A stretch of 64,000 bases of DNA from Bacteroidales bacterium (GCA_017552705.1 JAFZOY010000116.1:24310-88309), one strand, 5' to 3'. Numbered from the stretch's first letter, positions 1,566 to 14,149 are shown. The notes: a model not told the origin generated them from the sequence alone. Made by a program: numbers and translations.

Positions 1566-1609
1566 AATAACTATAAAAGGTTTAATTCAAAAATTATTTT
1601 CATCGTTTT

Positions 1610-1895: not shown

Positions 1896-1928
1896 CGTTC
1901 CATTTATTTTTTATAGGTTATTTCTTCG

Positions 1929-2480
1929 TCACCATTCTTCTTCTGGATGCAAATTGTTTATGTGAATTCCTTCCCAATTAAAAGGATTGGAACCATCGCT
2001 TCCATAAAACGACTCCGCATTTTCATATATAGAAATCTTACGTGCATATTCTGGTAATTTTCCAGGAAACACCATAAAAAAATCATACGAACGTGCGTTC
2101 CATTTTTCACCATTCTCATCTACATAAATAAACGGTTTACTTGCATATTGTACATTTTCTGGAGCATTAAGGGAAATCCATTTATCAAACGGCAACTCAC
2201 GTTGAATGCTGTCGGAAAGTATGCCAAAATGCTGTATGGTACTTATAAACGAACCGCAACGCAAACTGGTTTGCGAACCCATTCCGACTTTGTCGTTTCC
2301 CAACACGTTGTATCTGAATACCACATAGACCTGGTTTGGCTCCACAACAACTTTCATAATATGTATGTAATCACGACTTTGTCTATCAACTTTGGGATAA
2401 TACGTCGTAATTGTCTGTCCTACTACCAAAAAAGAAAGAAACAGAAAAACTATAGGCAATATGTAACGGAAAAGTTTCAT
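1929..2480 (-). CDS. Secreted hypothetical protein, KLFR-leader family member A
   Basis: ORF track 1929-2486. The ATG at 2480 gives MKLFRYILPIVFLFLSFLVVGQ signal peptide; TATTTTTG -7 box at 2501-2508. No recognisable domain. Confidence 0.6.
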   Translation of the reverse strand: MKLFRYILPIVFLFLSFLVVGQTITTYYPKVDRQSRDYIHIMKVVVEPNQVYVVFRYNVLGNDKVGMGSQTSLRCGSFISTIQHFGILSDSIQRELPFDKWISLNAPENVQYASKPFIYVDENGEKWNARSYDFFMVFPGKLPEYARKISIYENAESFYGSDGSNPFNWEGIHINNLHPEEEW

Positions 2481-2535
2481 AATCAAAAATGTTTAGAGTT
2501 CAAAAATAAGAAGATTTCTTTTACTTTTTGTCTTC
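2444..2535 (-). repeat. 5' homology cassette copy A (-7 box, leader, KLFR signal-peptide codons)
   Basis: Sense strand GAAGACAAAAAGTAAAAGAAATCTTCTTATTTTTGAACTCTAAACATTTTTGATTATGAAACTTTTCCGTTACATA; near-identical to copies B and C. Confidence 0.8.
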
Positions 2536-2625
2536 GGCAAGAAAATGACAAAGAAAATTTTCTAAATATCACTATCTATTTTGTAGTATCTAAAATAAAT
2601 AGTATTTTTACAAAAAAAACGAGAC

Positions 2626-3750
2626 ATGAAAAATCCTTTTATTCTTTCCCCATACACCGACAAATCGCTATTCTGCGACAGGGAATCGGAGTTAAAAACG
2701 CTGTTTGACTATGTTACAAACGAGGCAAATGTCACGTTAATTTCGCCACGAAGAATGGGAAAAACGGGACTAATCTACCGACTTTTCGACGAAATTTCAA
2801 CACAAAAACTCGACTTTGAAACATTTTACGTTGACATTTATGCCACACAATCTATCGACGAGTTCATAAAAGTTTTCTCCGAAACTATCATCCAATCGTT
2901 TCAAAAAAAGACTTCCCTGCTGAAAAAGGCAATGAAAGTGTTTTCGGGCGTAAAACCAGTCTTGTCGTTCGACGAACTGACGGGTAATCCGCAAATTTCT
3001 CTGTCATACAACGACAACGAGGAAAAAATGAAGACGTTACGGAGTATTTTCGATTTTTTGGAAAATCACGACAAAAAAGTGATTGTGGCATTCGACGAAT
3101 TTCAACAAGTCCGTGAATACAGAGGCGTAAACATGGAAGCCATATTACGTACTCATATACAAAAACTTACAAACGTCCGATTCATTTTCTGCGGAAGCAA
3201 GAAACATCTTATGTTCGACATTTTTGCAAACGCACGAAATCCGTTCTACGCAAGCACCAGCTACCTATATCTTGATAAGATTGACAATGGAAAATATTTC
3301 GATTTTATCGAACATCTGTTCAGTGAGCATGGGAAAACGATTGAAAGCGACGCAATTGAATTTGTGCTAAAATTCACCAAACGACACACGTTTTACACAC
3401 AATCGTTATGCCATTTCATTTTTCAAAACGCCTCCAAAAAAGTTTCGCTGCAATTTGCAAAAGAAGAAGCGGCACGACTGATTGCATTGAACGAAAACAT
3501 ATATCTGCAATATCGTTCGCTCCTTACGCCACAGCAATGGAACTATTTGAAAGCCATTGCAAAAGAAGGTGTTGTAGTACAACCAACAGCGAGTAGTTTT
3601 TTGAGGAAATACGAGATAGGCACGCCTGCAAATTCACAACGAATTTTGACCTCCCTCATAGCCAAAGATTTAATTCTCGACACAACGACCAAAGAACATA
3701 CTGAATATTCGGTTTCCGACGTGTTTTTATCCCGCTGGTTAGAAGCATAA
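2626..3750 (+). CDS. AAA+ ATPase (archaeal-ATPase/DEXX-box type) with C-terminal wHTH-like tail
   Basis: Walker A SPRRMGKTG, Walker B VIVAFDEFQQV; overall layout resembles PF01637-type ATP-binding proteins (from memory). Confidence 0.7.
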   Translation: MKNPFILSPYTDKSLFCDRESELKTLFDYVTNEANVTLISPRRMGKTGLIYRLFDEISTQKLDFETFYVDIYATQSIDEFIKVFSETIIQSFQKKTSLLKKAMKVFSGVKPVLSFDELTGNPQISLSYNDNEEKMKTLRSIFDFLENHDKKVIVAFDEFQQVREYRGVNMEAILRTHIQKLTNVRFIFCGSKKHLMFDIFANARNPFYASTSYLYLDKIDNGKYFDFIEHLFSEHGKTIESDAIEFVLKFTKRHTFYTQSLCHFIFQNASKKVSLQFAKEEAARLIALNENIYLQYRSLLTPQQWNYLKAIAKEGVVVQPTASSFLRKYEIGTPANSQRILTSLIAKDLILDTTTKEHTEYSVSDVFLSRWLEA

Positions 3751-3786
3751 CGACCATTTTTTCAACGAGTTATTTACCTCAAAACA

Positions 3787-4974
3787 ATGATTTCAAAACG
3801 TTTCATATTCCTTGCCCTCTTGCTTGCAAACATTGCGGCGTTTGCCTCGCCAAGCGACAGCGTGATGTTTCGTGTAGAGATTGGCGACAAATATGGTTTT
3901 GTGAAAGCTAATGGAGAAATTCTTATTGAACCGCAATTCGATTACGCCGGACAATTCTCGGTGAACGGTCTTGCCAAAGTTGAAATTAACGGCAAATACG
4001 GATATATTGACAAAACAGGAAAGATTGTCATTGAACCACAGTTTGAACTGGCCTTAGATTTTCATTCCGAAAACGGACTGGCTCCTGTCACCATAAATGG
4101 CAAATGGGGATTTATAGATAAAACAGGGAAAATTGTTGTTGAGCCACAATTTATAGATTGTTTTTATTCACAAGGCGTATATAATTTCCTGAGAAAAAGC
4201 GTGGACGATGACCAAACGGGATTTCTTGAGGACAGTACAGGCAAACTCACTATAGTACCCTATGTGATAATGACATTTTTTGGAGACGGACTGGCTGCCG
4301 TAAGTACCAAGAAGGGATACGGCTACATTGACTTGACCGGAGAAATTGCGATTAAACCAAATTCGAAATACCAATTTATAAGTTGCCATTATGAAGGCTT
4401 GGCTGCTGTTATGCAAAAGAACAAATGGGGCAAATGGGGCTTTATCGACAAAAAGGGGAAAGTTGTAGTAAGACCAATATATGACCACGTTTATCGTTTT
4501 TCAAACGGTAAAACCACCGTTGTAAAAAATGATAAATGCGGAGTCATAAACACCAAAGGAGAAATGATAATCAAGCCACAATTCGACATGATTGACAAAT
4601 TTGCGGCAAACGGTTTGGCAATAGTGAAAATCAATGACAAATATGGTTACATTGACACGACAGGGACAATAGTTTTCGAACCAAAATTTAACAAAGCCAC
4701 TGCTTTTTCTGAAAACAATTTTGCTTGTGTTAAAACAGACAACAAATGGGGAATAATAGACAATACGGGTAAATGGGTTATGGAACCGCAATTTGAAGGT
4801 CCATACCCTCCCGAGATTGTGGGAAACTATATCATTGTTGCAAACTATACAAAAAAAGGTACGTACCGTAGTGATGGCGTAATTGACTTGACCACAGGGA
4901 AATACACGATTGAAGCAACATGTGGTTATAAAATTAGTCCTGCTTTTATCGACGAATCCGAAGAAGATTTATAA
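3787..4974 (+). CDS. Secreted WG-repeat (KWG) protein
   Basis: Signal peptide MISKRFIFLALLLANIAAFA. Eight repeats of the type GK(Y/W)G(Y/F)IDKTGK(I/V)V(I/V)EPQF. Confidence 0.8.
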   Translation: MISKRFIFLALLLANIAAFASPSDSVMFRVEIGDKYGFVKANGEILIEPQFDYAGQFSVNGLAKVEINGKYGYIDKTGKIVIEPQFELALDFHSENGLAPVTINGKWGFIDKTGKIVVEPQFIDCFYSQGVYNFLRKSVDDDQTGFLEDSTGKLTIVPYVIMTFFGDGLAAVSTKKGYGYIDLTGEIAIKPNSKYQFISCHYEGLAAVMQKNKWGKWGFIDKKGKVVVRPIYDHVYRFSNGKTTVVKNDKCGVINTKGEMIIKPQFDMIDKFAANGLAIVKINDKYGYIDTTGTIVFEPKFNKATAFSENNFACVKTDNKWGIIDNTGKWVMEPQFEGPYPPEIVGNYIIVANYTKKGTYRSDGVIDLTTGKYTIEATCGYKISPAFIDESEEDL

Positions 4975-5033
4975 AAACGATCTCGGGGCACGAATACAAA
5001 AACAATCGGCATTATGGAACGAAAAAGTTTCAA
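4926..5033 (-). pseudogene. Orphan 5' cassette stub (KLFR leader with no mature domain)
   Basis: TTG 5033 reads MKLFRSIMPIVFVFVPRDRFYKSSSDSSIKAGLIL* (35 codons) and runs antisense into the 3' end of the WG-repeat gene. Confidence 0.5.
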
Positions 5034-5088
5034 AATCAAAAATGTTTAGAGTTCAAAAATAGAAAGTTTTCTTTTACTTTTTGTCTTC
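4997..5088 (-). repeat. 5' homology cassette copy B
   Basis: Sense GAAGACAAAAAGTAAAAGAAAACTTTCTATTTTTGAACTCTAAACATTTTTGATTTTGAAACTTTTTCGTTCCATAATGCCGATT; -7 box at 5054-5061. Confidence 0.8.
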
Positions 5089-5349
5089 AGCGACAAAAAG
5101 TAACAAAAACCGCCGTCGACGCCACATCTTCGCTAAAAATCTCCTCACTTCGCTAAACTCTCGAAATGGCGCCAACACACAATCCACGCTGCCAAGCCGA
5201 GAGTTTTTGACGCTCCGTTCAAAGATTTTCTTAACGCTCATCTGTGAAGTCGAACCATCATTGAATATTGGAAGACCATAAATCGGTGAGTATTATTGAA
5301 TACGATATTGTTTTCGCACCACGAGCATTCGACTGAGTTGCGAAGCGTG

Positions 5350-5670
5350 TCAATCCCTCTTTTTCCAAGATTCAATTGACTCCTCATATTCCTCTTTTGT
5401 ATAATATGGTGCAATATACGGAACTCTTCGACCTGAACCGTAATAATCATATTCTTTTTGTATCTTTTCAACATATTGTTTAGCATCTTCGTCAAATAAT
5501 AAGTAATCTTGCCACTCCAAAATATCATAATATGAACGTGGTGTATTATAATACTTATTGCTAAAACTGCTGTCCATAGATATCATCTCAACCTCGTTAG
5601 CATCGGTTAAATCTATTTCAAAAAATCTCTTTTCTTCAAAAGACTCATATTTATCCTTGAAGTGTCTCAT
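5350..5670 (-). CDS. Small cytoplasmic acidic/Tyr-rich hypothetical protein
   Basis: ATG 5670, 30 nt downstream of the stop of 5701-6078. No signal peptide and no recognisable motif. Confidence 0.45.
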   Translation of the reverse strand: MRHFKDKYESFEEKRFFEIDLTDANEVEMISMDSSFSNKYYNTPRSYYDILEWQDYLLFDEDAKQYVEKIQKEYDYYGSGRRVPYIAPYYTKEEYEESIESWKKRD

Positions 5671-5700
5671 TTCATTTCCCGTTACAACTTTTTGCTGAAA

Positions 5701-6078
5701 TCACGGCTTTGTTTTTATAAACCAATTCCCTTTCTTGAACTCAAAATTTTTCAAATGATAATTACGTGTATTACTACAAAGTCCAAATAAACACATCGTG
5801 TCTTTCCCACGTATTATCGTTATTGGGAAAGGAACATCACATATCAGTCCATCTGGAGTATATGGAAAAAATTCCTTAAAGAGCGTTTCTTTCTCGTATT
5901 TAACAATTGGTTTCTTTTTGACTATATCAAATACTATATGATATTTTTTTGTTGTTAATATTTTTAGATTAATTTTCTCCTTATTAGAAAATGTGAGTAA
6001 TCTATATTCTTGTGCCTGCAACGATATTGTTGTAAGCAACAGAAACACAATCGGCACTATGTAACGAAAGAGTTTCAA
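5701..6078 (-). CDS. Secreted hypothetical protein, KLFR-leader family member C
   Basis: TTG 6078 gives (M)KLFRYIVPIVFLLLTTISLQAQ; -7 box TATTTTTG at 6099-6106. Confidence 0.55.
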   Translation of the reverse strand: MKLFRYIVPIVFLLLTTISLQAQEYRLLTFSNKEKINLKILTTKKYHIVFDIVKKKPIVKYEKETLFKEFFPYTPDGLICDVPFPITIIRGKDTMCLFGLCSNTRNYHLKNFEFKKGNWFIKTKP

Positions 6079-6106
6079 AATCAAAAATGTTTAGAGTTCA
6101 AAAATA
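6042..6106 (-). repeat. 5' homology cassette copy C
   Basis: Sense TTATTTTTGAACTCTAAACATTTTTGATTTTGAAACTCTTTCGTTACATAGTGCCGATT. Confidence 0.8.
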
Positions 6107-6151
6107 ACAATTAAATGAAAATATATGTAAGAGGATCTCAAATTTTGATTG

Positions 6152-7687
6152 CTAGTAAAGGCCGTCCCTACCTTTAAGAAACTCAAGCAAATGAGTGAAT
6201 TTCTGTTGGTATGCTTTTCTAATAGAATCTCTATTATTGATAAGTAATTCCAATTTCTGCATATCGTCGGCTTTATCACTCGTTCTAAAAAATTTGAATG
6301 TTTCTGTTTCATCATCGAAACACTCTGATTTGCCCATACCACCCACACATATATCTTTAGCACCCTGCTCCATAACAACATTATTGTTATGAATCATAAA
6401 TGCCTTACATCCACATTTCTCACACTCAAAATCAAAGAGGATATTCCTATCATAATCAAATTCGACATAAGCATCTTCTATCTCATTTTCAATCACATCT
6501 ATTTTTACACTTTTGTTTTCACAAAGACTATAACACGTCAAATACCCCCGACTCTTTTTGACACCAGTATCATAAACGTGTTGATACATTATTGTATCTG
6601 AAATAAGATATGTTTCAAAAATCTTATCACTGGTATAATAACATTTCATATAGAGTGTATCATTACCAAATGAATTATAATAATCATCATATCCCCAATA
6701 CGAAGATTCTTCTTCGGACGAAGATTTTTCACGAATGATTTTTGCATCATCTTCAGACTTTTCATAGTTTAAGAATTTATAATAATGAATATTCTTTGCA
6801 CTATGGTGAATTCTATTCTTTGTCTTAATAAGGGCAATCCGCCCATTTTCTTTTTTTACATACATTGTGATACATTGATTATCAGGATCGTCAACTATTA
6901 GTCCAAAATAATTATCCCATACCCAAGGTCTGTATCGAATTATTTCATCCCATTCCACATCGTTTGTGTAACTATTTTCGTCTTTTGTCACTATTGTAGA
7001 ACTGATTTTGTCCACATCGAATGTACCTACCACTTCAACACCTTTTTCTGAGAAAATCTTTGCCAAATACAAGGTCATTTCGACATTGTCTTGTCCAAAA
7101 TATATTTGTCGTAATGAAGTAAGTTTTTCAAATTCATCAAAAAAAGCACACCCATAAAACTTATTAAAAGTGTTGATATTCAAACACTTAATATTTTTTA
7201 ATTTAGAAATACTATTTTCGGTAACAAGAATGTCAATACCTTTTATCCGTAATTCTTCCAACCACGTCATTTCCCACACTGGATTGGTAACACAAGGCAA
7301 ATTGGTTCGCAAAAAATTTCGTGCATAACTATGTCCTTCTACGTCAGTCACTTCCAAACGTTTGATTTTCTTGAAACCATCAATGCCGTTCAATCCCTGA
7401 ATAAGGAAACTTTCTATCCTCAACGCCTCGATATTCGGGAAATCTTCGGGGGTAAACGGTATGTGCTCTATCCACGGGTAGCATTTCAACTTCACATATT
7501 TCACCCGTTCCCTGTTTTTTATCTTGAAAACATCCACCTTGTTCGGCAACGACATGTCAAGTTCCAGTATCTCGTCGGGTGTGTACAACTCGTCCCAATG
7601 GAAATTGCCGTCCTTATCCATCTGCGCCATTGCCCCAAGCGAGAGGAAGAAAAAGAAAATGGGTAATATGGAACGGAAAAGTTTCAA
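6152..7687 (-). CDS. Secreted leucine-rich-repeat protein, KLFR-leader family member D
   Basis: TTG 7687 gives (M)KLFRSILPIFFFFLSLGAMAQ. LRR-like segments include NIEALRIESFLIQGLNGIDGFKKIKRLEV and LEELRIKGIDILVTENSISKLKNIKCLNI. The C-terminal part is Cys-rich. Confidence 0.7.
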   Translation of the reverse strand: MKLFRSILPIFFFFLSLGAMAQMDKDGNFHWDELYTPDEILELDMSLPNKVDVFKIKNRERVKYVKLKCYPWIEHIPFTPEDFPNIEALRIESFLIQGLNGIDGFKKIKRLEVTDVEGHSYARNFLRTNLPCVTNPVWEMTWLEELRIKGIDILVTENSISKLKNIKCLNINTFNKFYGCAFFDEFEKLTSLRQIYFGQDNVEMTLYLAKIFSEKGVEVVGTFDVDKISSTIVTKDENSYTNDVEWDEIIRYRPWVWDNYFGLIVDDPDNQCITMYVKKENGRIALIKTKNRIHHSAKNIHYYKFLNYEKSEDDAKIIREKSSSEEESSYWGYDDYYNSFGNDTLYMKCYYTSDKIFETYLISDTIMYQHVYDTGVKKSRGYLTCYSLCENKSVKIDVIENEIEDAYVEFDYDRNILFDFECEKCGCKAFMIHNNNVVMEQGAKDICVGGMGKSECFDDETETFKFFRTSDKADDMQKLELLINNRDSIRKAYQQKFTHLLEFLKGRDGLY

Positions 7688-7690
7688 AAT
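7620..7690 (-). repeat. 5' homology cassette copy D (coding part only; no own promoter)
   Basis: TTGAAACTTTTCCGTTCCATATTACCCATTTTCTTTTTCTTCCTCTCGCTTGGGGCAATGGCGCAG; about 85% identical to copy G. Confidence 0.75.
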
Positions 7691-9655
7691 CTAATAATTT
7701 TCATTTGCTACTCCGTAATAAAAATGAACGAGACGAACAGGTAAGGCATCAGCATTGACAAAATAAGTTCTACAATCAACGCCTGTAAAACCAGTGTTGA
7801 ATGTCATACATAAAGGAGCGGCATCAAAAATATCATCTTTTTGAGAATACGTACTTGTCCAATACCAACCAATATAATAGTTTCCCTTAAATACTTTATT
7901 ATATCGATAGCCCGCAGAAGGAAGAAACACCGCTCCGTTTGCCTCCATCTTCGCCCATTGCTCTATCGTATATTGGTTGTCAAAATATCCATATTCTCTG
8001 AAACCTGGTACAAAATCAACATCGGGCAAGTTTTTCCAATCATCGGGCAACAAGACCAGTCCAATCCAATCATCATCTTCCGAGATTTTTATTCTTGCAT
8101 AACCAGAAAGATACTTCGCATCAGTCCTTTTAAATATTATATATTCCCAACAATAACTGTCCAATGTAGCCCATTGTCCGTATGCCTGACCGCCATTGGA
8201 AATCTTGTTATATCCCCAATCCGATTTTCCAAACAAACTCATTTGATAATCATCAACGACTATGGTATAAGGTTTATAAATCTTTCCATTGGAGCACTTA
8301 AAACCCGACGTGGCCCATGCAAACAAGTCTATCCAACCATTATAAGTAGAAGATATTTTCTCGTTTCCCGGTCCCACAATATCCCATTGGTGTTCTGCAA
8401 ATCGCCATGTGTTGGTACTTGCCCTATATTGCAAGTTTCCCTTTGAAAATGCGACATACATTCGATAACATGAAGAAAACCATCCATGAATCGCACCTTC
8501 GGGATAAGGGAAATCACATTTCACGGAACGAGTGGTAATGTTCTGTACGGTTCCATAAATCGTATCGGTTTTGTAATCCTTGTTCGCATCCACTCTCAAA
8601 GTAACAATATAGGGGCGAATATAGTACGTCGTTTCCGGATTAAGACGAGTGTATATGGTGTCAAACTGCTGAATTTTGTCAAGACTTCTTTCACAAACCG
8701 AATTAGATTCAATGGTAAGGTTTTCATCGGTACCGATACAATATCCCATTTTCCCGTTTGCCTTGTCACTTGAAAAAACAGACAATCTGACGGTATGAGG
8801 GGTGACAGATTTTATCGTTGCAGAAACAAAAACCTTTTTCTCATTCATTAACTTGCCATTAACAGCAGAGTTCTTTTTCACATCTTGTACAAGACGGACT
8901 GCATATAAGCAACCACGGTTATTATAAGTAATATCGGGCTCTGTATATCCCGTAAACTTAAGAATATAGGCATTTTCCTCTTCTTTGCATGACGAAGACC
9001 AATAGGCCCCCACATACGAATCATAAGAGGGCAAAAACACGGCTCCGCATGACTGCATTATCAACCAATCGTTTGGTGTGTATGTGTTTTGCTTCCATTC
9101 ATTTGCCTGAGCGACAAAACGAAGTCTTGACGGTGTGGTCCAATTATCGGGCAAAAGGATTAAGCCATTCACTGTGCCAACGCGTCCTATAGAAAGCAAT
9201 TTTTCCGCACGGGGACGCTTGTGCAACACATAGTCCCACTCACTTCTGGTAAGTGTCCGCCACATTTTCACTTTGTTGCCGCCGTTGGCAATCTTATTGT
9301 ACACACCCCAGTCGGAATCAGTGTCCGCAATGTCACTGTTTTCATTGAAATATGCCTGCTTACGCTTTGACTGTGGCGACACGAGCCATCCGCTTGTCCC
9401 CCAGCAAAACAAGTCAATCCAAGCAGAAGAGTGCCCACCACTTTTTTTATTATCACCAATAACATCCCATTGCCGTTCGGCAAAACGCCACATTTTTGTG
9501 CCTGCCTGAAAACGCAGGTTACCTTTACTGAAATAAACCTTGGTGCTGTCGCTCACCGAAAATTCGGCAAGAATCGCACCGTCCTTTATAGGCGGTTGGG
9601 CTTGGGCTACAAAGGATAGCAGCAGAATGGGTAATATGTAACGAAAGAGTTTCAA
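7691..9655 (-). CDS. Secreted protein with two tandem lectin-like (FISUMP/DUF1566-like) repeats, KLFR-leader family member E
   Basis: TTG 9655 gives (M)KLFRYILPILLLSFVAQAQ. Two copies of FSKGNL..W(R)FAE.QWD..G..WIDLF.W.TSG..GAVFLPS..YW(S/T)S..VRLV. The family name is inferred from motif memory. Confidence 0.7.
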   Translation of the reverse strand: MKLFRYILPILLLSFVAQAQPPIKDGAILAEFSVSDSTKVYFSKGNLRFQAGTKMWRFAERQWDVIGDNKKSGGHSSAWIDLFCWGTSGWLVSPQSKRKQAYFNENSDIADTDSDWGVYNKIANGGNKVKMWRTLTRSEWDYVLHKRPRAEKLLSIGRVGTVNGLILLPDNWTTPSRLRFVAQANEWKQNTYTPNDWLIMQSCGAVFLPSYDSYVGAYWSSSCKEEENAYILKFTGYTEPDITYNNRGCLYAVRLVQDVKKNSAVNGKLMNEKKVFVSATIKSVTPHTVRLSVFSSDKANGKMGYCIGTDENLTIESNSVCERSLDKIQQFDTIYTRLNPETTYYIRPYIVTLRVDANKDYKTDTIYGTVQNITTRSVKCDFPYPEGAIHGWFSSCYRMYVAFSKGNLQYRASTNTWRFAEHQWDIVGPGNEKISSTYNGWIDLFAWATSGFKCSNGKIYKPYTIVVDDYQMSLFGKSDWGYNKISNGGQAYGQWATLDSYCWEYIIFKRTDAKYLSGYARIKISEDDDWIGLVLLPDDWKNLPDVDFVPGFREYGYFDNQYTIEQWAKMEANGAVFLPSAGYRYNKVFKGNYYIGWYWTSTYSQKDDIFDAAPLCMTFNTGFTGVDCRTYFVNADALPVRLVHFYYGVANENY

Positions 9656-9686
9656 AATAAATGTTTTAGAGTTCAAAGATAGAAAA
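9619..9686 (-). repeat. 5' homology cassette copy E
   Basis: Sense TTTTTCTATCTTTGAACTCTAAAACATTTATTTTGAAACTCTTTCGTTACATATTACCC; -7 box TATCTTTG at 9674-9681. Confidence 0.8.
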
Positions 9687-9687
9687 A

Positions 9688-10866
9688 TTACACGTTCTCA
9701 AAAAAATTACCCCAGTCTTTCCAACTCACATAATTAACATTGTTGATTCTACATGTAAAATCGCCTAAATACAATACAGTACCGTCGCATTGCACGTCGG
9801 AACGCAAGTCTATGTATTTTCTGACGTTTGCTGACAACTTCTTCTCCGCATCGCTCGAACTCTTTATCTCAACGGCAAATGTATGTTTCCAGTCGGCAAT
9901 AATGTCAACCTCAAATCCTTTGTTGTCACGGAAATAGGTCAAGTTTGCCTTTTTCGCCTTGTTCAATCTGGTCTTCAACAATTCCGAAACGGCAAATGTT
10001 TCAACAATGGCGCCCTTATTGAGATTTAAATTCAAATCGGCGATTGTTTCTATCCGCAACAAATGACACAACAAGCCAGTATCGACAAAATACAGTTTCG
10101 GAGTTTTTACAACCGCCTTCCCAAGATTGTTCGTGTCGGGTTCCAAAAAGTGAATTATATATGACGACTCCAAGATTGAAAGCCATTTTTTTACCGTCGG
10201 TGCCGAAATTCCCAGATTTTTTGAAATGCTATCCATCGAGACCATTTGTCCGCTATAAGTGGCACAAATCTGAATAAACCGTCTGAACAGGGAAAGATTG
10301 CTTGCGTTTATCAAATCCTTCACATCGTAGTCCAAATAGGTGTCGATATAACTTTCGAACCAATCTTCCTTGAAAAAATGTTTCTGCGTATCGTGCAACG
10401 GCGGATAAAATCCTTTGACAATCATGTCGTATGGTGTTTCAAACTGTTCTGCCGTAGTGTTCAGTTCCGCAATGGAAAGCGGCAACAGTTTAAGAAACGC
10501 CACACGTCCCGCCAAGGAATCCGTCATATTTTCCTTCAACTTAAACTGGCTGGAACCTGTGAGAATAAATGTTCCTGGAGCGGTATTCCTATTGTCAACA
10601 TAGTATTTCACCGCATCAAAAATTTCGGGGACTTTCTGCGCCTCGTCTATAATCGCCCCGTCGGGAAACGACAACAAGAAATCCTTTGGGTTCGACGCCG
10701 CAAGTTCACGAAGACTTTTGTCATCGAACGTGAAATATTTCTTTTCGGGAAACGTCATCTTTGCCAACGTTGACTTTCCGCTTTGGCGAGGTCCAGTCAG
10801 CCCGACAACAGGAAATTGAGATGCAAGTCTCAACAAAGCTTCGCGTGCAGTTCTCTGTATCAACAT
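9688..10866 (-). CDS. AAA+ ATPase of the AAA_14/DUF4143 type with C-terminal PD-(D/E)xK-like motif
   Basis: Walker A GPRQSGKST, AIIDEAQ, C-terminal FEVDIIADWKHTFAVEIKSSS. Start set at ATG 10866 (MLIQRTAREALL) because TTG 10896 overlaps the -7 box. Confidence 0.8.
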   Translation of the reverse strand: MLIQRTAREALLRLASQFPVVGLTGPRQSGKSTLAKMTFPEKKYFTFDDKSLRELAASNPKDFLLSFPDGAIIDEAQKVPEIFDAVKYYVDNRNTAPGTFILTGSSQFKLKENMTDSLAGRVAFLKLLPLSIAELNTTAEQFETPYDMIVKGFYPPLHDTQKHFFKEDWFESYIDTYLDYDVKDLINASNLSLFRRFIQICATYSGQMVSMDSISKNLGISAPTVKKWLSILESSYIIHFLEPDTNNLGKAVVKTPKLYFVDTGLLCHLLRIETIADLNLNLNKGAIVETFAVSELLKTRLNKAKKANLTYFRDNKGFEVDIIADWKHTFAVEIKSSSDAEKKLSANVRKYIDLRSDVQCDGTVLYLGDFTCRINNVNYVSWKDWGNFFENV

Positions 10867-10893
10867 ATCAATTCGTTTTTTACCATTTTGATG

Positions 10894-10901
10894 CAAATAT
10901 A
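10894..10901 (-). promoter_or_regulatory. -7 box TATATTTG of the ATPase gene
   Basis: Matches the Bacteroidota TAnnTTTG consensus, 28 nt upstream of ATG 10866, directly abutting the triple repeat. Confidence 0.55.
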
Positions 10902-10970
10902 GTAAAAATCTAAAGTTTTATATGGTGAAAATCTAAAGTTTTGTGCAGTAAAAATCTAAAGTTTTGTATT
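10902..10970. repeat. Three tandem 23-bp direct repeats (core GT[A/G]AAAATCTAAAGTTTT)
   Basis: Cores at 10902-10919, 10925-10942 and 10948-10965; period 23 bp; one mismatch among the cores. Confidence 0.9.
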
Positions 10971-11062
10971 TTTTTATGATGAGATGTCTCTCTCCGCTTC
11001 GCTCCGTTCGACATGACGGTGCAGGACAATCGCGACCTGTGTCACCATTTTTCATCGAAGAA

Positions 11063-11906
11063 TCACCACTCTTTCAATGTGTTGAAACCATCGGCTTCGT
11101 AGTTGTATGAAATTCCTTGTCGTCCATCGGAGGAATCGAACCAATTCTGCTGTTTTGGAAGCCCCAATGCATAGATATTCTCATCTGTTTTGGGACGAGT
11201 GAACTGGTGGGGCAACCGTACATGCGTCACTCTTTCGTAGAATTCAGGTGTAACCCAACATTTGTCAACTTTAAGTCCCTCAAAATAATAACCAATTGCT
11301 TGTCTGTAAAAATTCTCATCAACCTCTATCACTGCACGACATTTCGTCCAATTTTTTTTTGCCTCCTCATATTGCTTGCGGGCATCTTCCTCTCTTTTAT
11401 ATACTTTCTCGTACTCCGACAACAAGACATAACGTCCTCCAATGTAACAACCATAATATGTGTCGAAGAATCTAACATATTTTCGTCCCACAGAATCAGT
11501 TTTCACAAATGACGAGTCATTTGTATTCCAAACATAATTGTATGTCCATTGAACGGAATCTTTTTCCACCTTTTCATAATACCCCAACGGTGTGATTATT
11601 CCATTCGGCAATAGCTTACAACGTATTTTGCCCGTTACAGGTTTTATGTTGTTTTCATCGTACCATTGAATTCCGACAATTCTATTCACGGCATCCTGAC
11701 TTCTAACGCGCAAGCATTTGTTTTCCACAGTGTCGTAGTACGTATAAAACAAATCAGTTATTGAATATAATGAATCTTCAGCACATTTTATTACTGCACA
11801 AGATTCGTATCCTATCTTGAAAATTTTGCTTGTGTCAACCTGCGCTGTTCCCGCAACCGAGCAGAACAGAAAGATAACAGGCACTATGTAACGGAAAAGT
11901 TTCAAA
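11063..11906 (-). CDS. Secreted hypothetical protein, KLFR-leader family member F
   Basis: TTG 11906 gives (M)KLFRYIVPVIFLFCSVAGTAQ. The C-terminus ...YNYEADGFNTLKEW is shared with member G. Confidence 0.6.
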
Positions 11907-11938
11907 ATCAAAATTGTTTGGAGTTCAAAGATAGAAAA
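11870..11938 (-). repeat. 5' homology cassette copy F
   Basis: Sense ATTTTTCTATCTTTGAACTCCAAACAATTTTGATTTTGAAACTTTTCCGTTACATAGTGCC; -7 box at 11926-11933. Confidence 0.8.
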
Positions 11939-12099
11939 ATTCCTGAATAATTCCAACAGACCCTTCGCGTTGCTCAGGGTGACGGTGGCGGGGAGAGAAA
12001 AAGTAACAAAGAACAATTATAGTGATGTTTCGTACAGAAAAACAACGTTTTATTTGTTTTCTATACAAAATAGCACTACCTTTGCATAAATATAAAAAA

Positions 12100-12720
12100 A
12101 TGAGTCCGTTCAATAACATTGGGAACATACCGTTCGATAGCACCGTTCTTGCTTCACTATTTCCCAAGAACAAGCATATCAATGAGAAAGCACGTGCGTT
12201 GGAAAAAGCGGGTGAAATCATTCGGCTCAAAAAGGGATTATACGTTGCAAGTCCCGAAGAGACGGGCAAACCGCTTTCGCAGGAACTCATTGCCAACCAC
12301 TTGTACGGACCTTCGTATGTGGGGCGTGAATATGCCTTGCGTTACTACGGACTTATTCCTGAACGCGTGTATCTTCTCACATCCGTAACTACCAAACATT
12401 CAAGGAATTTTGAAAATGCCACGGGGAATTATTCCTACCAGAACTGTTCACCCGAATACTTCTCCATCGGCGTAAGAATGGAACAGTCCGACGGCGTTAC
12501 ATTTCTCATAGCCTCGCCCGAAAAGGCATTGTGCGACGTCATCAATTTCAGCAAGAATCTCAATCTACGGTTTATGAAAGACGTTGAAATCTACCTTGAG
12601 GAAGATATTCGTTTCGACACCGACGAACTGAAAAATTTCAACATCGACATTCTTGAACAATGTGCAACAGTCAGTCGTAAACAACAAAGTATCAACACAT
12701 TAATCAAATACCTAAAATGA
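12100..12720 (+). CDS. AbiEi-like type IV toxin-antitoxin antitoxin / transcriptional regulator
   Basis: MSPFNNIGNIPFDSTVLASLFP...AGEIIRLKKGLYV...HLYGPSYVGREYALRYYGLIPE fits the AbiEi N-terminal pattern (memory). TACCTTTG box at 12077-12084. 4-nt overlap with the next gene. Confidence 0.7.
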   Translation: MSPFNNIGNIPFDSTVLASLFPKNKHINEKARALEKAGEIIRLKKGLYVASPEETGKPLSQELIANHLYGPSYVGREYALRYYGLIPERVYLLTSVTTKHSRNFENATGNYSYQNCSPEYFSIGVRMEQSDGVTFLIASPEKALCDVINFSKNLNLRFMKDVEIYLEEDIRFDTDELKNFNIDILEQCATVSRKQQSINTLIKYLK

Positions 12721-13182
12721 ACGACATTTTTGAACAAATGCTCCGCCAACACTCCCCCTCAGGAGAAATCGACAAGCGTAATGCTGTTTACGAGGTTATG
12801 CAACAAGTAATTCTCGGCGGACTGTATCGTGGCGGATTCTTCAAAGAAGCAGCGTTCTATGGTGGCACGTGCCTGCGAATCTCGCCCTTGTGTTCCGTCA
12901 ATGGAAAATCGCATTAAAGGACGCGACTGGTACGATTTTGAATGGTATGTCAGGAATCGTATTGCACTTGATTTCAATCATCTTCAAGTCCGTGCAAAAG
13001 AATTCAACGGCATTGAGATAGACAAAGGGCAATTTACGGAACTGCTCAAAAAACGCCTTGCCGAGACCGACATTGCCAAGGTTAAATCCGACGTGCTGCC
13101 GTATGTTATTGACAAACACGAACTTGACATTTGGTCAAACGATTATTTTCTTCAATTGGCTGATATGATTGTTTATGTGTAG
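12717..13182 (+). pseudogene. AbiEii/AbiGii nucleotidyltransferase toxin, internally deleted and frameshifted
   Basis: N-terminus ...VILGGLYRGGFFKEAAFYGGTCLRI is followed by a stop at 12915-12917. A second frame carries ...NRIKGRDWYDFEWYVRN...DIWSNDYFLQLADMIVYV*. The whole span is 466 nt, against roughly 280-300 aa expected. Confidence 0.65.
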
Positions 13183-13260
13183 GTACATTGACAAGCACCG
13201 CACACCGATTGAGTTGCAAGGATTAATTTTTCTTTCAAGAAAAAAGTAACAGAATCTCTT

Positions 13261-13896
13261 CTACCACACTCTCAACGACTTGAAGCCGTCGGCTTCGTAT
13301 TTGTTTGTCTTTTCGGGAAAAACTGGTTGACCATATGGCAAATAGCCACCATTTTGAAATTTTCTTAAAAATGTCTCAAATGATTCGCATGGTTCGAGAG
13401 TTACGTTTATGACATTATGATATGGAAGTTCTGAGGAAGGAATAATTAATATAGCATCAGAAGGAATAGTTATAGTATCAGGATGGGGCTTACTAATTTT
13501 TTCCTTGTATATTTCACTATCATTCCATCTAATACTCATACTAAAATGTTGTTCATCAATACTAATAGTAAGAGAACCAGGCGATGTCCAAATTATAGCA
13601 GTAGGAATTTGCGATTCAACCCGTAAGAATTGTTTGTCGTCATGTATAAATTCTTTGATTTTGGGTCCTGCTTCAAAAGCATGTGGGTCGCGAAGACAAA
13701 TCACAGATTCAAGGGGTATTTTATCAAACACCAACCAAAAACATTTGCACGATTCACAATTGTCTTCTTCGATTGCTACGTTTGCCTTTCGGTATAAGCT
13801 ACTATCTATTTCTATCTTGATAGAGTCGACCTGCCCCACCGCCCCGAGCGAGAGGAAGAAAAAGAAAATCGGCAGTATGGAACGAAAGAGTTTCAT
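13261..13896 (-). CDS. Secreted hypothetical protein, KLFR-leader family member G
   Basis: ATG 13896 gives MKLFRSILPIFFFFLSLGAVGQ. C-terminus ...NKYEADGFKSLRVW. Confidence 0.6.
   Translation of the reverse strand: MKLFRSILPIFFFFLSLGAVGQVDSIKIEIDSSLYRKANVAIEEDNCESCKCFWLVFDKIPLESVICLRDPHAFEAGPKIKEFIHDDKQFLRVESQIPTAIIWTSPGSLTISIDEQHFSMSIRWNDSEIYKEKISKPHPDTITIPSDAILIIPSSELPYHNVINVTLEPCESFETFLRKFQNGGYLPYGQPVFPEKTNKYEADGFKSLRVW
13830..13896 (-). repeat. 5' homology cassette copy G (coding part only)
   Basis: ATGAAACTCTTTCGTTCCATACTGCCGATTTTCTTTTTCTTCCTCTCGCTCGGGGCGGTGGGGCAG. The upstream sequence is unrelated to the other copies. Confidence 0.75.
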
Positions 13897-14099
13897 TATT
13901 CTTGTGAAATTATCCAACGGGCGAAAAAAGGGTCCTCCAACTCGTATGACGTGGTTTTTATTATATATCCGTTGACGGAGTTTCTTTTTAATTATCAGTA
14001 TTTTATATTATGCGAAATAAATCGCAACGGAATTTTTCGCAATATACAACTTTTCATAAAGCAATGCCACTTCAAAGAGAGTATTTTTATTTTCGGCGA

Positions 14100-14149
14100 G
14101 AAACAATAACATTCTAATCGTTGATGGATTTTTCCACCAACGATTAGAA
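14100..14149 (-). terminator. Hairpin downstream of 14190-15293
   Basis: 16-bp stem TTCTAATCGTTGATGG / CCACCAACGATTAGAA (one mismatch), 6-nt loop, moderately T-rich tail in minus sense. Confidence 0.5.

What the first reader, a model, noticed from the sequence alone, without database searches (positions are those of the whole stretch)
1929..13917. Seven copies of one promoter, short leader and signal-peptide 5' cassette grafted onto unrelated secreted proteins, mostly with TTG starts
On the minus strand the same roughly 60-95-nt 5' module recurs at seven places:

| Copy | Coordinates | Note |
|---|---|---|
| A | 2444-2535 | full cassette |
| B | 4997-5088 | full cassette, orphan stub |
| C | 6042-6106 | full cassette |
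| D | 7620-7690 | coding part only |
| E | 9619-9686 | full cassette |
| F | 11870-11938 | full cassette |
| G | 13830-13896 | coding part only |

- **Consensus (sense):** TA(T/C)(T/C)TTTG AACTC(T/C)AAA(A)CA(T/A)TT(TGA)TT [TTG/ATG] AAA CT(T/C) TT(C/T) CGT T(A/C)C ATA. This is a TAnnTTTG -7 box, a leader of about 20 nt, and codons for (M)KLFR(Y/S)I(L/V/M)P(I/V).
- **Start codons:** the homologous start is ATG in A and G but TTG in B, C, D, E and F.
- **Mature parts:** downstream of the cassette the proteins are mutually unrelated. They are two small unknowns, an LRR protein, a tandem lectin-like protein and two proteins sharing only a C-terminal motif.
- **Sub-types:** A/B/C share GTTCAAAAATA on the plus strand, and E/F share GTTCAAAGATAGAAAAATT.
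- **Interpretation:** nucleotide-level conservation extends upstream of the start codon, so this is not just a generic hydrophobic signal peptide. It resembles the 'upstream homology box' organisation of Borrelia lipoprotein families, with a shared expression and export module that could drive co-regulation or recombinational shuffling of secreted effectors.
Basis: partly seen in the sequence, partly recalled or inferred. Interest (0 to 1): 0.75.

Follow-up and report, generated by a model that had tools for sequence, protein, structure and literature searches.

The report
Portable promoter and signal-peptide cassette
An uncultured ruminant-gut Bacteroidales bacterium puts the same ~90-base front end (promoter box, short leader, unusual TTG start, export signal) on at least eight unrelated secreted-protein genes in one variable island, and closely related assemblies show the protein bodies being swapped behind it.

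Summary
All seven minus-strand copies exist at the stated places, against 0.46 expected by chance, and an eighth diverged copy starts at 1565. Five copies carry a TAnnTTTG box and an 18-20-nt spacer, with 73-93% identity upstream against a background of 52±6%. Five of seven starts are TTG.

The mature parts share no detectable similarity. They include RHS-repeat, weak LRR-like and Lcl-like domains.

Public assemblies hold the cassette only in ruminant-gut Bacteroidales. It occurs in 3 species genomes, 36 metagenome loci and about 30 protein clusters among 1.84 billion.

The shuffling idea is supported directly:
- A 98.9%-identical assembly keeps the flank, the ATG and the whole signal peptide of gene G, then carries an unrelated mature protein from the cleavage codon on.
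- Gene C elsewhere is identical from its TTG onward but has an unrelated upstream region.
- Each upstream class fronts several mature families, and each family sits behind several classes.
- A matching 3' module (YEADGF..L.EW, stop, flank) also recurs.

No recombinase, inverted repeats or RNA structure were found. The best reading is a Sec/SPI expression-and-export module that also serves as portable homology for recombination. Promoter activity, TTG initiation and co-regulation remain inferred. It is a new variant of a known kind.

The parts
1503..1600 (-). Copy H, new and diverged. It has a TAATTTTTGAATTAAAC box-like sequence, a leader, a TTG start at 1563-1565 and the signal peptide LKSPRHILTIFFIFLSIIGMG|Q. 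The gene runs off the left end of the window; it is called as 797 aa in L045 and has an RHS repeat.
2418..2537 (-). Copy A, full cassette. It has the class-0 upstream sequence GAAGACAAAAAGTAAAAG, a TATTTTTG box at 2501-2508, a 20-nt spacer, ATG at 2478-2480 and the signal peptide MKLFRYILPIVFLFLSFLVVG|Q. Gene A is 1929-2480.
1836..2597 (-). Gene-A unit. It is 97.5-98.9% identical in at least five different neighbourhoods. The 5' breakpoint (2537/2597) lies just upstream of the promoter box. The 3' breakpoint (1836/1862) lies inside the next gene's signal peptide (MKRICFFFLLGLANFYSFAQ, start at 1896).
4926..5090 (-). Copy B, orphan 5' stub. It has the palindrome CTTTTTGTC-N6-GACAAAAAG, a TATTTTTG box at 5054-5061, TTG at 5031-5033 and a 35-codon ORF that degenerates after about codon 14. 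It converges on the end of the + strand WG-repeat gene.
6013..6106 (-). Copy C, full cassette. It has a TATTTTTG box at 6099-6106, TTG at 6076-6078 and the signal peptide ...TTISLQA|Q. Gene C is 5701-6078. C plus ORF 5350-5670 form one gene in other assemblies.
7625..7687 (-). Copy D, signal peptide only. TTG at 7685-7687 lies 3 nt after the stop of E, so translational coupling is possible. Gene D is 6152-7687.
9599..9689 (-). Copy E, full cassette. It has AATTTTTCTATCTTTG with the box at 9674-9681, an 18-nt spacer, TTG at 9653-9655 and the signal peptide ...SFVAQA|Q. Gene E is 7691-9655.
11843..11941 (-). Copy F, full cassette. It has AATTTTTCTATCTTTG with the box at 11926-11933, TTG at 11903-11905 and the signal peptide ...CSVAGTA|Q. 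Gene F is 11063-11905.
13834..13896 (-). Copy G, signal peptide only, with ATG at 13894-13896 and its own unrelated upstream region. Gene G is 13261-13896.
13195..13825 (-). Allelic replacement segment, made of the G mature-coding region plus its 3' flank. In L053, L054 and L055 an unrelated 519-bp segment (the mature part of P0015) replaces it. The flanks are 98.9% and 97.8% identical. The 5' edge falls exactly at the signal-peptide cleavage codon.
13261..13299 (-). 3' module of G: the C-terminal motif KYEADGFKSLRVW plus the stop codon. A recurring AT-rich hairpin flank follows (TAGAAGAGATTCTGTTACTTTTTTCTTGAAAGAAAA).
11063..11101 (-). 3' module of F: the C-terminal motif NYEADGFNTLKEW plus the stop codon. 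The recurring flank TGATTCTTCGATGAAAAATGGTG... with a REP-like element follows.

Best explanation
The repeat is a lineage-specific 5' expression-and-export module about 90 nt long.

**Components of the module**
- A Bacteroidota sigma-ABfr-type -7 box (TAnnTTTG).
- An 18-20-nt A/U-rich, unstructured spacer and leader, with A at -3 and an A-run around -11 to -14.
- A TTG start codon (ATG in a minority of copies).
- A Sec/signal-peptidase-I signal peptide, M/L-K-L-F-R-(Y/S)-I-x-P followed by a hydrophobic core, ending in the Bacteroidetes 'Q-rule' site (A/G | Q).

**Setting.** The module heads at least eight genes for unrelated secreted or periplasmic proteins. They lie in a low-GC, hypervariable chromosomal island beside tRNA-Gln and are interleaved with defence-type genes. 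A subset of the genes also ends in a shared 3' module (YEADGF..L.EW, stop codon and flank).

**Proposed working.** Each module gives its gene its own promoter, its own Shine-Dalgarno-independent initiation site and Sec export. Because the module is repeated in direct orientation, it also acts as portable homology. General recombination and gene conversion within or at the edges of the module exchange mature-protein-coding bodies. They also move whole gene units between array slots, paralogues and strains, leaving orphan 5' and 3' stubs behind.

**Shown:** the repeat, its restricted distribution, the mosaicism, the allele replacement with breakpoints at module edges, and the linkage of TTG with the leader.

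**Inferred:** promoter activity and transcription start site, TTG initiation, signal-peptidase-I cleavage and pyroglutamate formation, the recombination pathway, and any co-regulation.
For: **The repeat is real.**

**Module boundaries.** Among 48 copies, conservation of at least 90% spans CTATYTTTGAACTCYAAAC..TTTGATT-TTG-AAACTNTTNCGTTNCATA. It falls off about 15 nt upstream of the box and after about codon 10.

**The leader looks constrained.** This test used the 29 metagenome copies that were baited only on coding sequence.
- The 26-28-nt box plus leader has a mean major-allele frequency of 0.94-0.95.
- Adjacent free synonymous sites are near saturation, at 0.48 for L3 and 0.38 for P9.

**Fit to Bacteroidota expression signals.** Published features are TAnnTTTG at -7, a modal 5' UTR of 23 nt, and A enrichment at -3, -6 and -11 to -15 in place of a Shine-Dalgarno sequence (PMC7366714). 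The leader RNA is unstructured, with z about 0.

**Signal peptide.** Position 22 is an invariant Gln preceded by A or G, matching the Q-rule (PMC5837995).

**TTG belongs to the module.**

| Upstream context | TTG | ATG |
|---|---|---|
| Cassette leader | 34 | 9 |
| Other context | 5 | 14 |

- Fisher p is 1.4e-4, and the copies are not independent.
- In the fuller set of 73 copies, each of the eight non-cassette TTG copies has a diverged cassette, an ATG directly in front, or a position that abuts or overlaps the stop codon of an upstream ORF.

**Mature parts are unrelated.**

**Shuffling.**
- An allelic mature-domain swap has its edge exactly at the signal-peptide end. It is seen in three independent assemblies.
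- One junction lies exactly at the TTG; another case shows a 40-nt conversion patch in the hydrophobic core.
- Another breakpoint lies inside the leader.
- Upstream class 0 fronts 6 mature families and classes 1 and 2 front 5 each. Mature families with at least three copies show 1-7 upstream classes.
- Gene A, 100% identical at the protein level, sits in at least five neighbourhoods.
- Orphan 5' and 3' stubs occur.

**Promoter and signal peptide are tightly linked.** 46 of 51 boxes are followed by the signal peptide under the script's test, and a 47th (L022) carries a variant of it.
Against: - There are no expression data, so promoter activity, transcription start site, TTG initiation and cleavage all rest on consensus and comparison.
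- No -33 TTTG element is conserved across the upstream classes.
- Every comparison sequence is a metagenome assembly or MAG. Some mosaicism could in principle be an assembly chimera. Two points argue against this: the key arrangements recur in independent samples, and the shared repeat is shorter than the k=141 suggested by the k141_ contig names (my inference).
- Homologous recombination between cassettes explains exchange among genes that already carry the module. It does not explain how unrelated bodies first acquired it.
- Breakpoints exactly at the TTG and exactly at the cleavage codon could also fit a site-directed process.
- Several synonymous positions are invariant (K2 AAA, R5 CGT, I7 ATA, and position 6 as TCC or TAC) despite unfavoured codons. 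This hints at a nucleotide-level function that this explanation does not cover.
Confidence: 0.7

Rival explanations
1. This is ordinary tandem gene duplication. One ancestral secreted-protein gene was duplicated. The mature parts then diverged beyond recognition, while the 5' end stayed conserved under purifying selection.
For: - All copies are co-oriented in one array.
- F and G share a C-terminal motif.
- D and G have similar signal-peptide DNA, at 85%.
Against: - Mature parts range from 125 to over 1300 aa and carry different repeat families: RHS_repeat, WG_beta_rep, weak LRR and an Lcl-like fold.
- The E domain belongs to a family with 1878 detected homologues that uses several other signal peptides.
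- The breaks in homology are sharp, going from 98.9% identity to none exactly at the signal-peptide end or at the TTG. Gradual divergence cannot produce that.
Confidence: 0.04
2. This is an integron-like or rAID-1-like acquisition array. A site-specific tyrosine recombinase inserts gene cassettes, and the repeated intergenic sequence is its recombination site.
For: - The genes are co-directional, GC is low (34.5-41.5% against 40-47% in most of the rest of the window), and the intergenic sequences are repetitive. These features are listed for rAID-1 (10.1101/471110).
- Some breakpoints fall at precise positions.
- Class-0 upstream sequences contain a palindrome.
Against: - No recombinase, integrase or transposase domain was found in the window ORFs scanned up to about 52 kb, or in the 8 kb beyond the left end in L045. 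ORFs of 150 aa or more beyond about 52 kb were not scanned.
- There is no att-like repeat of the tRNA.
- Breakpoints are heterogeneous. They fall upstream of the box, inside the leader, at the TTG, inside the hydrophobic core and at the cleavage site.
- The repeat includes coding sequence and a promoter, unlike attC.
- No Pfam family at all, and so no immunity family, is hit by the six cassette proteins at E up to 0.01.
- The palindrome is not conserved among class-0 copies.
Confidence: 0.08
3. This is a programmed phase- or antigenic-variation system of the Mycoplasma vsp/vlp/vsa or pilE/pilS type. One expression site is combined with silent bodies, and recombination at the conserved 5' sequence switches which protein is made.
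For: - The 5' non-coding region and signal peptide are conserved in front of variable bodies.
- Stubs and promoterless copies (D, G) exist.
- Array turnover is high between assemblies whose flanks differ by about 1%.
Against: - Most copies carry their own promoter box and start codon, 46-47 of 51, so they are not silent.
- All copies are in direct orientation, so recombination between them deletes rather than inverts.
- No inverted repeats flank the promoters, no recombinase is present, and no long homopolymer or simple-repeat tract is seen in the box-to-start sequences.
Confidence: 0.06
4. The main reason for conservation is regulatory. The leader, the TTG and the first about 10 codons form an operator at DNA or RNA level for a dedicated trans-acting factor. 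This could be a transcription factor on the two TTTGAA(A)C repeats spaced 21-23 nt apart, an sRNA or RNA-binding protein over the start region, or IF3-sensitive TTG initiation. The factor would co-regulate a variable secretome, and recombination would be a side effect of the repeat.
For: - The leader is far more conserved than adjacent neutral sites.
- Synonymous positions are invariant and use unfavoured codons: ATA is 17% and TCC is 9% of their codon sets in housekeeping genes.
- TTG is tightly linked to this leader.
- TTTGAACTC in the box is repeated as TTTGAAACTC at the start codon.
Against: - No candidate regulator or antisense copy was found in the window.
- The RNA is unstructured.
- The invariance of CGT and ATA is partly an ascertainment effect of the search pattern. 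About 8 unbiased copies confirm it.
- A promoter plus a Shine-Dalgarno-less initiation region alone could account for much of the constraint.
Confidence: 0.2

Closest known systems
Borrelia upstream homology box (UHB) gene families on cp32 and linear plasmids (erp/mlp/bdr-type loci). This comparison rests on my own knowledge and was not tested here.
   Same: A conserved block comprising promoter, leader and the start of the ORF is shared by otherwise divergent paralogous genes for exported proteins. It is thought to allow common expression control and recombination.
   Different: - Borrelia is an unrelated phylum and the sequences are unrelated.
- The Borrelia genes are plasmid-borne lipoprotein genes with sigma-70-type promoters and Shine-Dalgarno sites.
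- This locus is chromosomal, with a Bacteroidota -7 box, no Shine-Dalgarno sequence, TTG starts and signal-peptidase-I Q-rule signal peptides.
Mycoplasma variable lipoprotein loci (vlp, vsp, vsa). This comparison rests on my own knowledge.
   Same: A highly conserved 5' non-coding region and signal peptide sit in front of variable bodies within clustered, recombining arrays.
   Different: - The Mycoplasma systems switch by site-specific inversion or promoter slippage and encode lipoproteins with repeats.
- Here there is no recombinase, no inverted sites and no slippery tract.
- Here all copies are in direct orientation and the mature parts are unrelated families.
Phytoplasma 'sequence-variable mosaic' (SVM) proteins with a conserved signal peptide (Pfam SVM_signal). 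The literature was located and the details are from my own knowledge.
   Same: One highly conserved signal peptide is attached to many unrelated small secreted proteins in recombination-prone mosaic regions.
   Different: - Phytoplasmas are wall-less Mollicutes, and the regions are associated with potential mobile units.
- No Pfam signal-peptide family hits these proteins.
- The conservation here also includes the promoter, the leader and a TTG start.
Bacteroidales rAID-1 recombinase-associated orphan-immunity arrays (10.1101/471110)
   Same: Both occur in the order Bacteroidales. Both are low-GC, co-directional arrays of small diverse genes with repetitive intergenic sequences, variable between strains.
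   Different: - The defining XerD-like recombinase is absent here.
- The cassette proteins hit no Pfam family, and so none of the Pfam immunity families.
- The repeat extends into the coding region as a signal peptide.
- The genes include large repeat proteins of 500 to over 1300 aa.
Orphan toxin and immunity modules of CDI/Rhs systems, and tandem T7SS immunity paralogues (PMC9484751, seen)
   Same: Short conserved sequence at the module edges lets homologous recombination swap variable bodies. Orphan fragments accumulate.
   Different: - There the conserved part lies inside one large toxin gene or in paralogous immunity genes.
- Here it is a promoter plus signal-peptide front end, and in a subset a 12-aa C-terminal motif, on unrelated genes.

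Membership tests
rAID-1 (recombinase-associated acquired interbacterial defence array) | A XerD-like tyrosine recombinase gene at the 5' end of the array | tested here: not met
   Pfam scans of window ORFs from 14 to 52 kb and the called genes of L045-L055 show no integrase or recombinase domain. Upstream of the array lie a 367-aa protein, tRNA-Gln and aroD/aroB.
rAID-1 (recombinase-associated acquired interbacterial defence array) | Two or more co-directional downstream genes with GC of 41% or lower and repetitive intergenic sequences | tested here: met
   Eight co-directional genes are present. GC is 34.5-41.5% across 1-14 kb, against 40-47% in most of the rest of the window. The 5' and 3' modules are repeated. 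However, + strand genes are interleaved.
rAID-1 (recombinase-associated acquired interbacterial defence array) | Genes homologous to interbacterial immunity families | tested here: not met
   None of the six cassette proteins in the window hits Pfam, NCBIfam or PADLOC. The specialised immunity HMM set of the rAID paper was not available.
Bacteroidota sigma-ABfr promoter | A TAnnTTTG element centred near -7 of a mapped transcription start | tested here: inconclusive
   TATTTTTG or TATCTTTG is present 18-20 nt upstream of the start codon in A, B, C, E and F. The consensus is cited from PMC7366714. There are no transcription-start data, and no -33 TTTG is conserved.
Sec / signal peptidase I signal peptide obeying the Bacteroidetes Q-rule | A basic n-region, a hydrophobic core, a small residue at -1, Gln at +1 and no lipobox Cys | tested here: met
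   K2 and R5 are invariant, a hydrophobic core of 11-14 residues follows, and the site is A/G then Q22, which is invariant. The rule is from PMC5837995. This is by inspection only. No signal-peptide predictor was available and cleavage is not shown.
Curated conserved signal-peptide families (SVM_signal, YSIRK, KxYKxGKxW, ESPR) | A match to the Pfam or NCBIfam model | tested here: not met
   The full-length proteins, N-termini included, gave no hit.
Bacteroides invertible promoters and shufflons | Inverted repeats flanking the promoter or the 5' gene segment, plus a nearby serine or tyrosine recombinase | tested here: not met
   No local inverted repeats surround any cassette. All copies are in direct orientation in every contig. 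No recombinase is present.
Mycoplasma-type phase-variable lipoprotein family | A lipoprotein signal with a lipobox Cys, and a switching element such as a homopolymer tract or a recombination site | tested here: not met
   No lipobox is present and the signal is of the SPI type. No long homopolymer or simple-repeat tract is seen between the box and the start codon.
T9SS cargo | A C-terminal sorting domain (Por_Secre_tail or type-B CTD) | tested here: not met
   The cassette proteins have no CTD hit. Neighbouring genes do have one, so the organism has a T9SS. The 12-aa YEADGF..L.EW end is not a known CTD.
Borrelia UHB families | Sequence homology to the UHB, plasmid location and lipoprotein products | not tested
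   No Borrelia sequence was compared. The window's flanking genes are chromosomal housekeeping genes and the products are not lipoproteins, so only the organisation is analogous.

The most novel reading that the evidence does not exclude
The cassette may be more than a promoter plus signal peptide. It could be an 'address label' that defines a private, co-ordinately controlled and continuously re-assorted secretome.
- **Control.** The invariant leader, the TTG start, the fixed synonymous positions (AAA, CGT, ATA, TCC/TAC) and the box-like repeat at the start codon would form an operator for a dedicated DNA- or RNA-level regulator.
- **Re-assortment.** Together with the 3' YEADGF..L.EW module, the same sequence would bracket gene bodies. 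General recombination could then exchange them within and between genomes, giving an integrase-free functional equivalent of an integron for exported proteins in Bacteroidales.
Probability: 0.15. Interest if true: 0.8.

Novelty: new variant of a known kind. Interest (0 to 1): 0.6.

Why it matters
- **A clear case in a new phylum.** It shows, in Bacteroidota, a portable block of promoter, leader, start codon and signal peptide. The boundaries are base-exact, and natural swaps of protein bodies behind the block can be read directly from public assemblies. Three literature searches found no description of such a module in this phylum.
- **Strain diversification.** It suggests how gut commensals could diversify exported proteins quickly between strains. 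Flanks differ by about 1% while array content is completely different.
- **A natural test set for initiation.** It offers many genes for studying non-AUG, Shine-Dalgarno-independent initiation in Bacteroidota.
- **Annotation errors.** Gene callers truncate these genes and lose the signal peptide, or extend them to a TTG inside the promoter box. Secretome predictions for this lineage are therefore wrong in a systematic way.
- **A possible tool.** A compact natural expression-and-export cassette could be useful for engineering Bacteroidales.

Tried and rejected
- **Signal-peptide profile in the word-indexed protein search.** The 44-aa profile returned only 6 short proteins because only the 8000 candidates sharing most words were scored. 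The exhaustive representative search gave the usable answer of 30 clusters.
- **AlphaFold model of the G family.** Only 7 sequences were available and mean pLDDT was 47.5. The model was unusable and no fold search was run on it.
- **Sequence search of E, D and A against PDB chains.** Nothing significant was found.
- **Riboswitch or RNA thermometer in the leader.** Rejected: folding energies match shuffled controls and the only Rfam hit in the window is a tRNA.
- **Invertible promoter or shufflon.** Rejected.
- **Integrative island at tRNA-Gln.** Not supported: there is no repeat of the tRNA 3' end and no integrase.
- **Phage origin.** Two pattern scans of the viral contig collection gave no match.
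- **The class-0 palindrome CTTTTTGTC-N6-GACAAAAAG as an attC-like or operator site.** Not pursued, because its left arm is not conserved among class-0 copies.
- **Literature searches for a described Bacteroidota equivalent.** They returned nothing relevant.
- **Codon invariance at CGT and ATA.** This was first over-read. The metagenome bait fixed those bases, so only the roughly 8 copies found independently of nucleotide sequence count.

Full report
**1. The observation**

The core AAACTNTTNCGTTNCATA occurs seven times in the 64-kb window. Shuffles give a mean of 0.46 matches, and none of 100 reaches seven. An independent repeat search recovers the same seven-member family (family D2).

Translating from the homologous start codon gives (M/L)KLFR(Y/S)I(L/V/M)P followed by a hydrophobic core. 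The start is ATG in A and G, and TTG in B, C, D, E and F.

The non-coding part TTTGAACTCYAAAMA is present at a fixed offset in A, B, C, E and F only. Its TAnnTTTG box ends 18-20 nt before the start codon.

| Region compared | Identity |
|---|---|
| 45 nt upstream, among A, B, C, E, F | 73-93% |
| 45 nt upstream of D and G | 47-64% |
| Random 45-mers (background) | 52±6% |
| Mature-coding DNA | 46-65% |

The mature proteins share no blastp similarity except the C-terminal YEADGF..L..W of F and G. None hits Pfam, NCBIfam or PADLOC.

I add an eighth, diverged copy. Its TTG is at 1563-1565, it encodes LKSPRHILTIFFIFLSIIGMGQ, and it has a recognisably homologous but degenerate box and leader. It heads an RHS-repeat protein that runs off the left end of the window.

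**2. Where else it occurs**

- A strict promoter-to-signal-peptide pattern hit three MAGs among 185,579 species genomes. All three are uncultured ruminant-gut Bacteroidales.
- A pattern confined to the coding part hit 36 metagenome loci.
- An exhaustive HMM search with the seven N-termini against 1.84 billion cluster representatives found only 30 proteins at E≤0.001. Their mature parts are mostly unrelated to one another and range from 54 to 1336 aa.
- Viral contigs hold no copy.

The module is therefore a private feature of a narrow lineage. Window 1-12480 is 100% identical to an ENA contig (L045), which extends the locus 8 kb further left.

**3. Anatomy of the module**

Across 48 copies, conservation of at least 90% runs from about 15 nt upstream of the box to about codon 10. 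The sequence is CTATYTTTGAACTCYAAAC..TTTGATT TTG AAA CTN TTN CGT TNC ATA. Further upstream the copies fall into several recurrent classes.

The most useful test uses the 29 cassette-bearing metagenome copies, because their bait lay wholly in the coding part.
- The 26-28-nt box plus leader has a mean major-allele frequency of 0.94-0.95.
- The free synonymous positions next door are near saturation, at 0.48 for L3 and 0.38 for P9.

The non-coding part therefore appears to be under constraint of its own, rather than merely young.

The sequence fits what is published for Bacteroidota (PMC7366714):
- TAnnTTTG at -7.
- Short leaders, with a mode of 23 nt.
- No Shine-Dalgarno sequence, but A enrichment at -3, -6 and -11 to -15.

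The cassette has A at -3 and an A-run at about -10 to -14. The predicted 5' RNA is unstructured, with z-scores about 0, and no Rfam family matches it.

The peptide has a basic n-region and a hydrophobic core. It ends in A/G followed by an invariant Gln. This is the signal-peptidase-I 'Q-rule' site of Bacteroidetes (PMC5837995). There is no lipobox and no T9SS C-terminal domain.

**4. The TTG start**

Among 62 unique copies, 39 start with TTG.

| Upstream context | TTG | ATG |
|---|---|---|
| Cassette leader | 34 | 9 |
| Other sequence | 5 | 14 |

The odds ratio is 10.6 and Fisher p is 1.4e-4, with the caveat that the copies are not independent.

In the fuller set of 73 copies there are eight TTG copies without the canonical leader:
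- four have a diverged leader;
- two have an ATG placed directly in front (ATG-TTG-AAA);
- two abut or overlap the stop codon of an upstream ORF.

TTG is therefore part of the module. The same position is ATG in homologues, and in type-1 leaders an in-frame TAA lies five codons upstream of the start. These points make it the most likely initiation codon, but this remains inference.

Gene callers handle these genes badly. Some truncate the gene and lose the signal peptide (L053, called at 8305 when the likely start is about 8207). Others extend it to a TTG inside the promoter box (MNSKTFILKLFRY...).

**5. Are the bodies really unrelated?**

- H has an RHS repeat above Pfam's cut-off.
- D has only a sub-threshold LRR_4 match.
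- Relatives in other contigs have WG β-propeller repeats.
- E's N-terminal domain belongs to a family with 1878 detected homologues. A 62-sequence AlphaFold model has pLDDT 73. Its best PDB match is the Lcl C-terminal domain, a C-type-lectin-like fold, but the match is weak (probability 0.93, E=0.055).

Within the E family the same mature start (..GAI.AEFSVSDSTKVYFSQGNLQYQAS..) follows the KLFR peptide in 39 of the 120 top hits. In the others it follows at least four further signal peptides, lipoprotein signals among them. The signal peptide and the body thus have separate histories.

**6. Direct evidence of shuffling**

(a) *Allelic body swap.* Three independent assemblies (L053, L054, L055) are collinear with window 13826-19896 at 98.9% identity. 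The shared stretch covers aroB, aroD, the 367-aa gene, G's upstream region, its ATG and the whole signal peptide. Homology stops at the Gln cleavage codon and resumes at 13194, just past the AbiEii stop. In between, the window encodes the G body and the other assemblies encode an unrelated 188-aa protein.

(b) *Junction at the start codon.* Gene C in L028 is identical to the window from the TTG onward, with three mismatches over about 240 nt, but shares nothing upstream. The junction is ATG|TTG.

(c) *Conversion patch.* Two D-family genes share their upstream region, n-region and body, but differ in a roughly 40-nt patch in the hydrophobic core. This is a conversion-like tract.

(d) *Breakpoint in the leader.* Downstream of the 98.9%-identical DUF4143 ATPase gene, L046 keeps the promoter box and then diverges inside the leader into another gene.

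(e) *A travelling gene unit.* Gene A is 100% identical at the protein level yet lies in at least five different neighbourhoods. The shared DNA unit runs from just upstream of its box to inside the next gene's signal peptide.

(f) *Mixed associations.* Upstream class 0 fronts six mature families, and classes 1 and 2 front five each. Mature families with at least three copies show between one and seven upstream classes.

(g) *Debris.* Orphan 5' stubs occur, namely B and a recurrent 30-codon stub. Orphan 3' stubs also occur.

A matching 3' module recurs at the ends of unrelated bodies. It consists of the C-terminal YEADGF..L.EW, the stop codon and one of a few flanks, and it includes F, G and H.

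Breakpoints are scattered across the module and do not sit at one fixed site.

**7. Context**

The array occupies a low-GC stretch next to tRNA-Gln. It is interleaved with several other genes:
- an AbiEi/AbiEii pair;
- a DUF4143 ATPase that matches the PADLOC candidate PDC-S01;
- an ATPase_2 gene;
- a WG-repeat gene.

The ORFs scanned in the rest of the window, up to about 52 kb, are housekeeping-type genes (aroB, queC/queF, ATP synthase, IF-2, NusA) together with a two-component pair and a T9SS-tailed protein.

The following were not found:
- a recombinase or transposase in those ORFs or in the flanking loci;
- an att-like repeat of the tRNA;
- inverted repeats around the cassettes.

**8. Interpretation**

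The best-supported reading is a lineage-specific expression-and-export front end that also acts as portable homology. General recombination and gene conversion at or within it, and at the 3' module where present, re-assort protein bodies and move gene units.

- *Shown:* the repeat, its constraint, its narrow distribution and the mosaicism.
- *Inferred:* promoter activity, TTG initiation, cleavage and the recombination pathway.

How unrelated bodies first acquired the module is not explained.

Several synonymous positions also remain unexplained. AAA at K2, CGT at R5, ATA at I7 and TCC/TAC at position 6 are invariant, although ATA makes up 17% and TCC 9% of their codon sets in the window's housekeeping genes. 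The box-like TTTGAAAC at the start codon is a further oddity. These features leave room for an additional DNA- or RNA-level operator.

**9. Comparison with known systems**

- **Analogues in organisation.** The arrangement resembles Borrelia UHB families, Mycoplasma vlp/vsp loci and phytoplasma SVM proteins. These comparisons rest on my own knowledge, and only located SVM literature.
- **rAID-1.** Within Bacteroidales the locus resembles rAID-1 arrays (10.1101/471110), but it fails the defining recombinase criterion.
- **Curated signal-peptide families.** It matches none.
- **Prior description.** I found no description of such a module in Bacteroidota.

I rate it a new variant of a known kind, with interest 0.6.

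**10. Caveat**

All comparison sequences are metagenome assemblies or MAGs. The decisive arrangements each recur in independent samples, and the shared repeat (about 100 nt or less) is shorter than the k=141 suggested by the k141_ contig names. That makes assembly chimeras an unlikely general explanation, but closed genomes are needed.

Noticed in passing
window 10901-10969: Three tandem 23-nt repeats (AGTAAAAATCTAAAGTTTTATAT) lie immediately upstream of the DUF4143 ATPase gene (9688-10896, minus strand). That gene matches the PADLOC candidate defence family PDC-S01 at E=8e-99. The repeats could be an operator or iteron-like array.
   Followed up: no
window 12717-13182 (+): The AbiEii toxin gene is broken here. 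About 358 nt present in L053 are missing, and the gene is 274 aa in L053 and L046. The AbiEi antitoxin gene (12022-12720) is intact.
   Followed up: partly
window 13261-13299 and 11063-11101; L045 13325-13406; many loci: A 12-aa C-terminal motif, YEADGF(K/N)(S/T)L(K/R)EW followed by the stop codon, ends many otherwise unrelated cassette proteins. One of a few recurrent 3' flanks follows it. No Pfam or NCBIfam model covers it. It could be a sorting or recognition tag, or just the 3' recombination anchor.
   Followed up: partly
window 1610-1900 (-): This is the remnant of a deleted gene. A 31-codon stub with a different signal peptide (MKRICFFFLLGLANFYSFAQ, start at 1896) is followed, in another frame, by the C-terminal end of an E/Lcl-like domain (..VRLVQDVK). 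The gene is intact in L049 (1772-2272, Pfam Lcl_C).
   Followed up: partly
window 5350-6078 (-): Gene C (5701-6078) and the ORF 5350-5670 correspond to a single longer gene in other assemblies (P0033; L046 432-1181). The gene is therefore split here.
   Followed up: partly
window ~11955-11990 and ~10985-11060 (-): REP-like elements lie between array genes and recur in the intergenic modules of other contigs. Examples are GTCACCCTGAGCAACGCGAAGGGTC and CCGTCATGTCGAACGGAGCGAAGCGGAGAGAGACATCTC. Gene callers translate them into spurious N-terminal extensions.
   Followed up: no
L003 4784, L011 1850, L032 5882, L046 1188-1280 and 9169-9261: A 30-codon cassette 'stub' (M/L)KLFRYIVPILFLFCSVAGNATTKPTASKR* is conserved across several contigs. 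It may be a real micro-ORF rather than debris.
   Followed up: no
all cassette copies, codons 2-7: Synonymous positions of K2 (AAA), R5 (CGT), I7 (ATA) and S6/Y6 (TCC/TAC) are essentially invariant. ATA and TCC make up 17% and 9% of their codon sets in the window's housekeeping genes. The third positions of L3, F4 and P9 vary freely. Part of this is search-pattern bias, but about 8 independently found copies confirm it.
   Followed up: partly
L005 1577, L007 161, L041 5093, L046 3230-3300: In a derived variant, the same promoter box is followed by a short insertion that creates an ATG, and by a related but distinct signal peptide (MKWFH(T/V)IV...).
   Followed up: no
window 27324-38198 (-): A giant 3624-aa ORF lies between a LytTR two-component pair and the ATP synthase operon. 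It was not examined.
   Followed up: no
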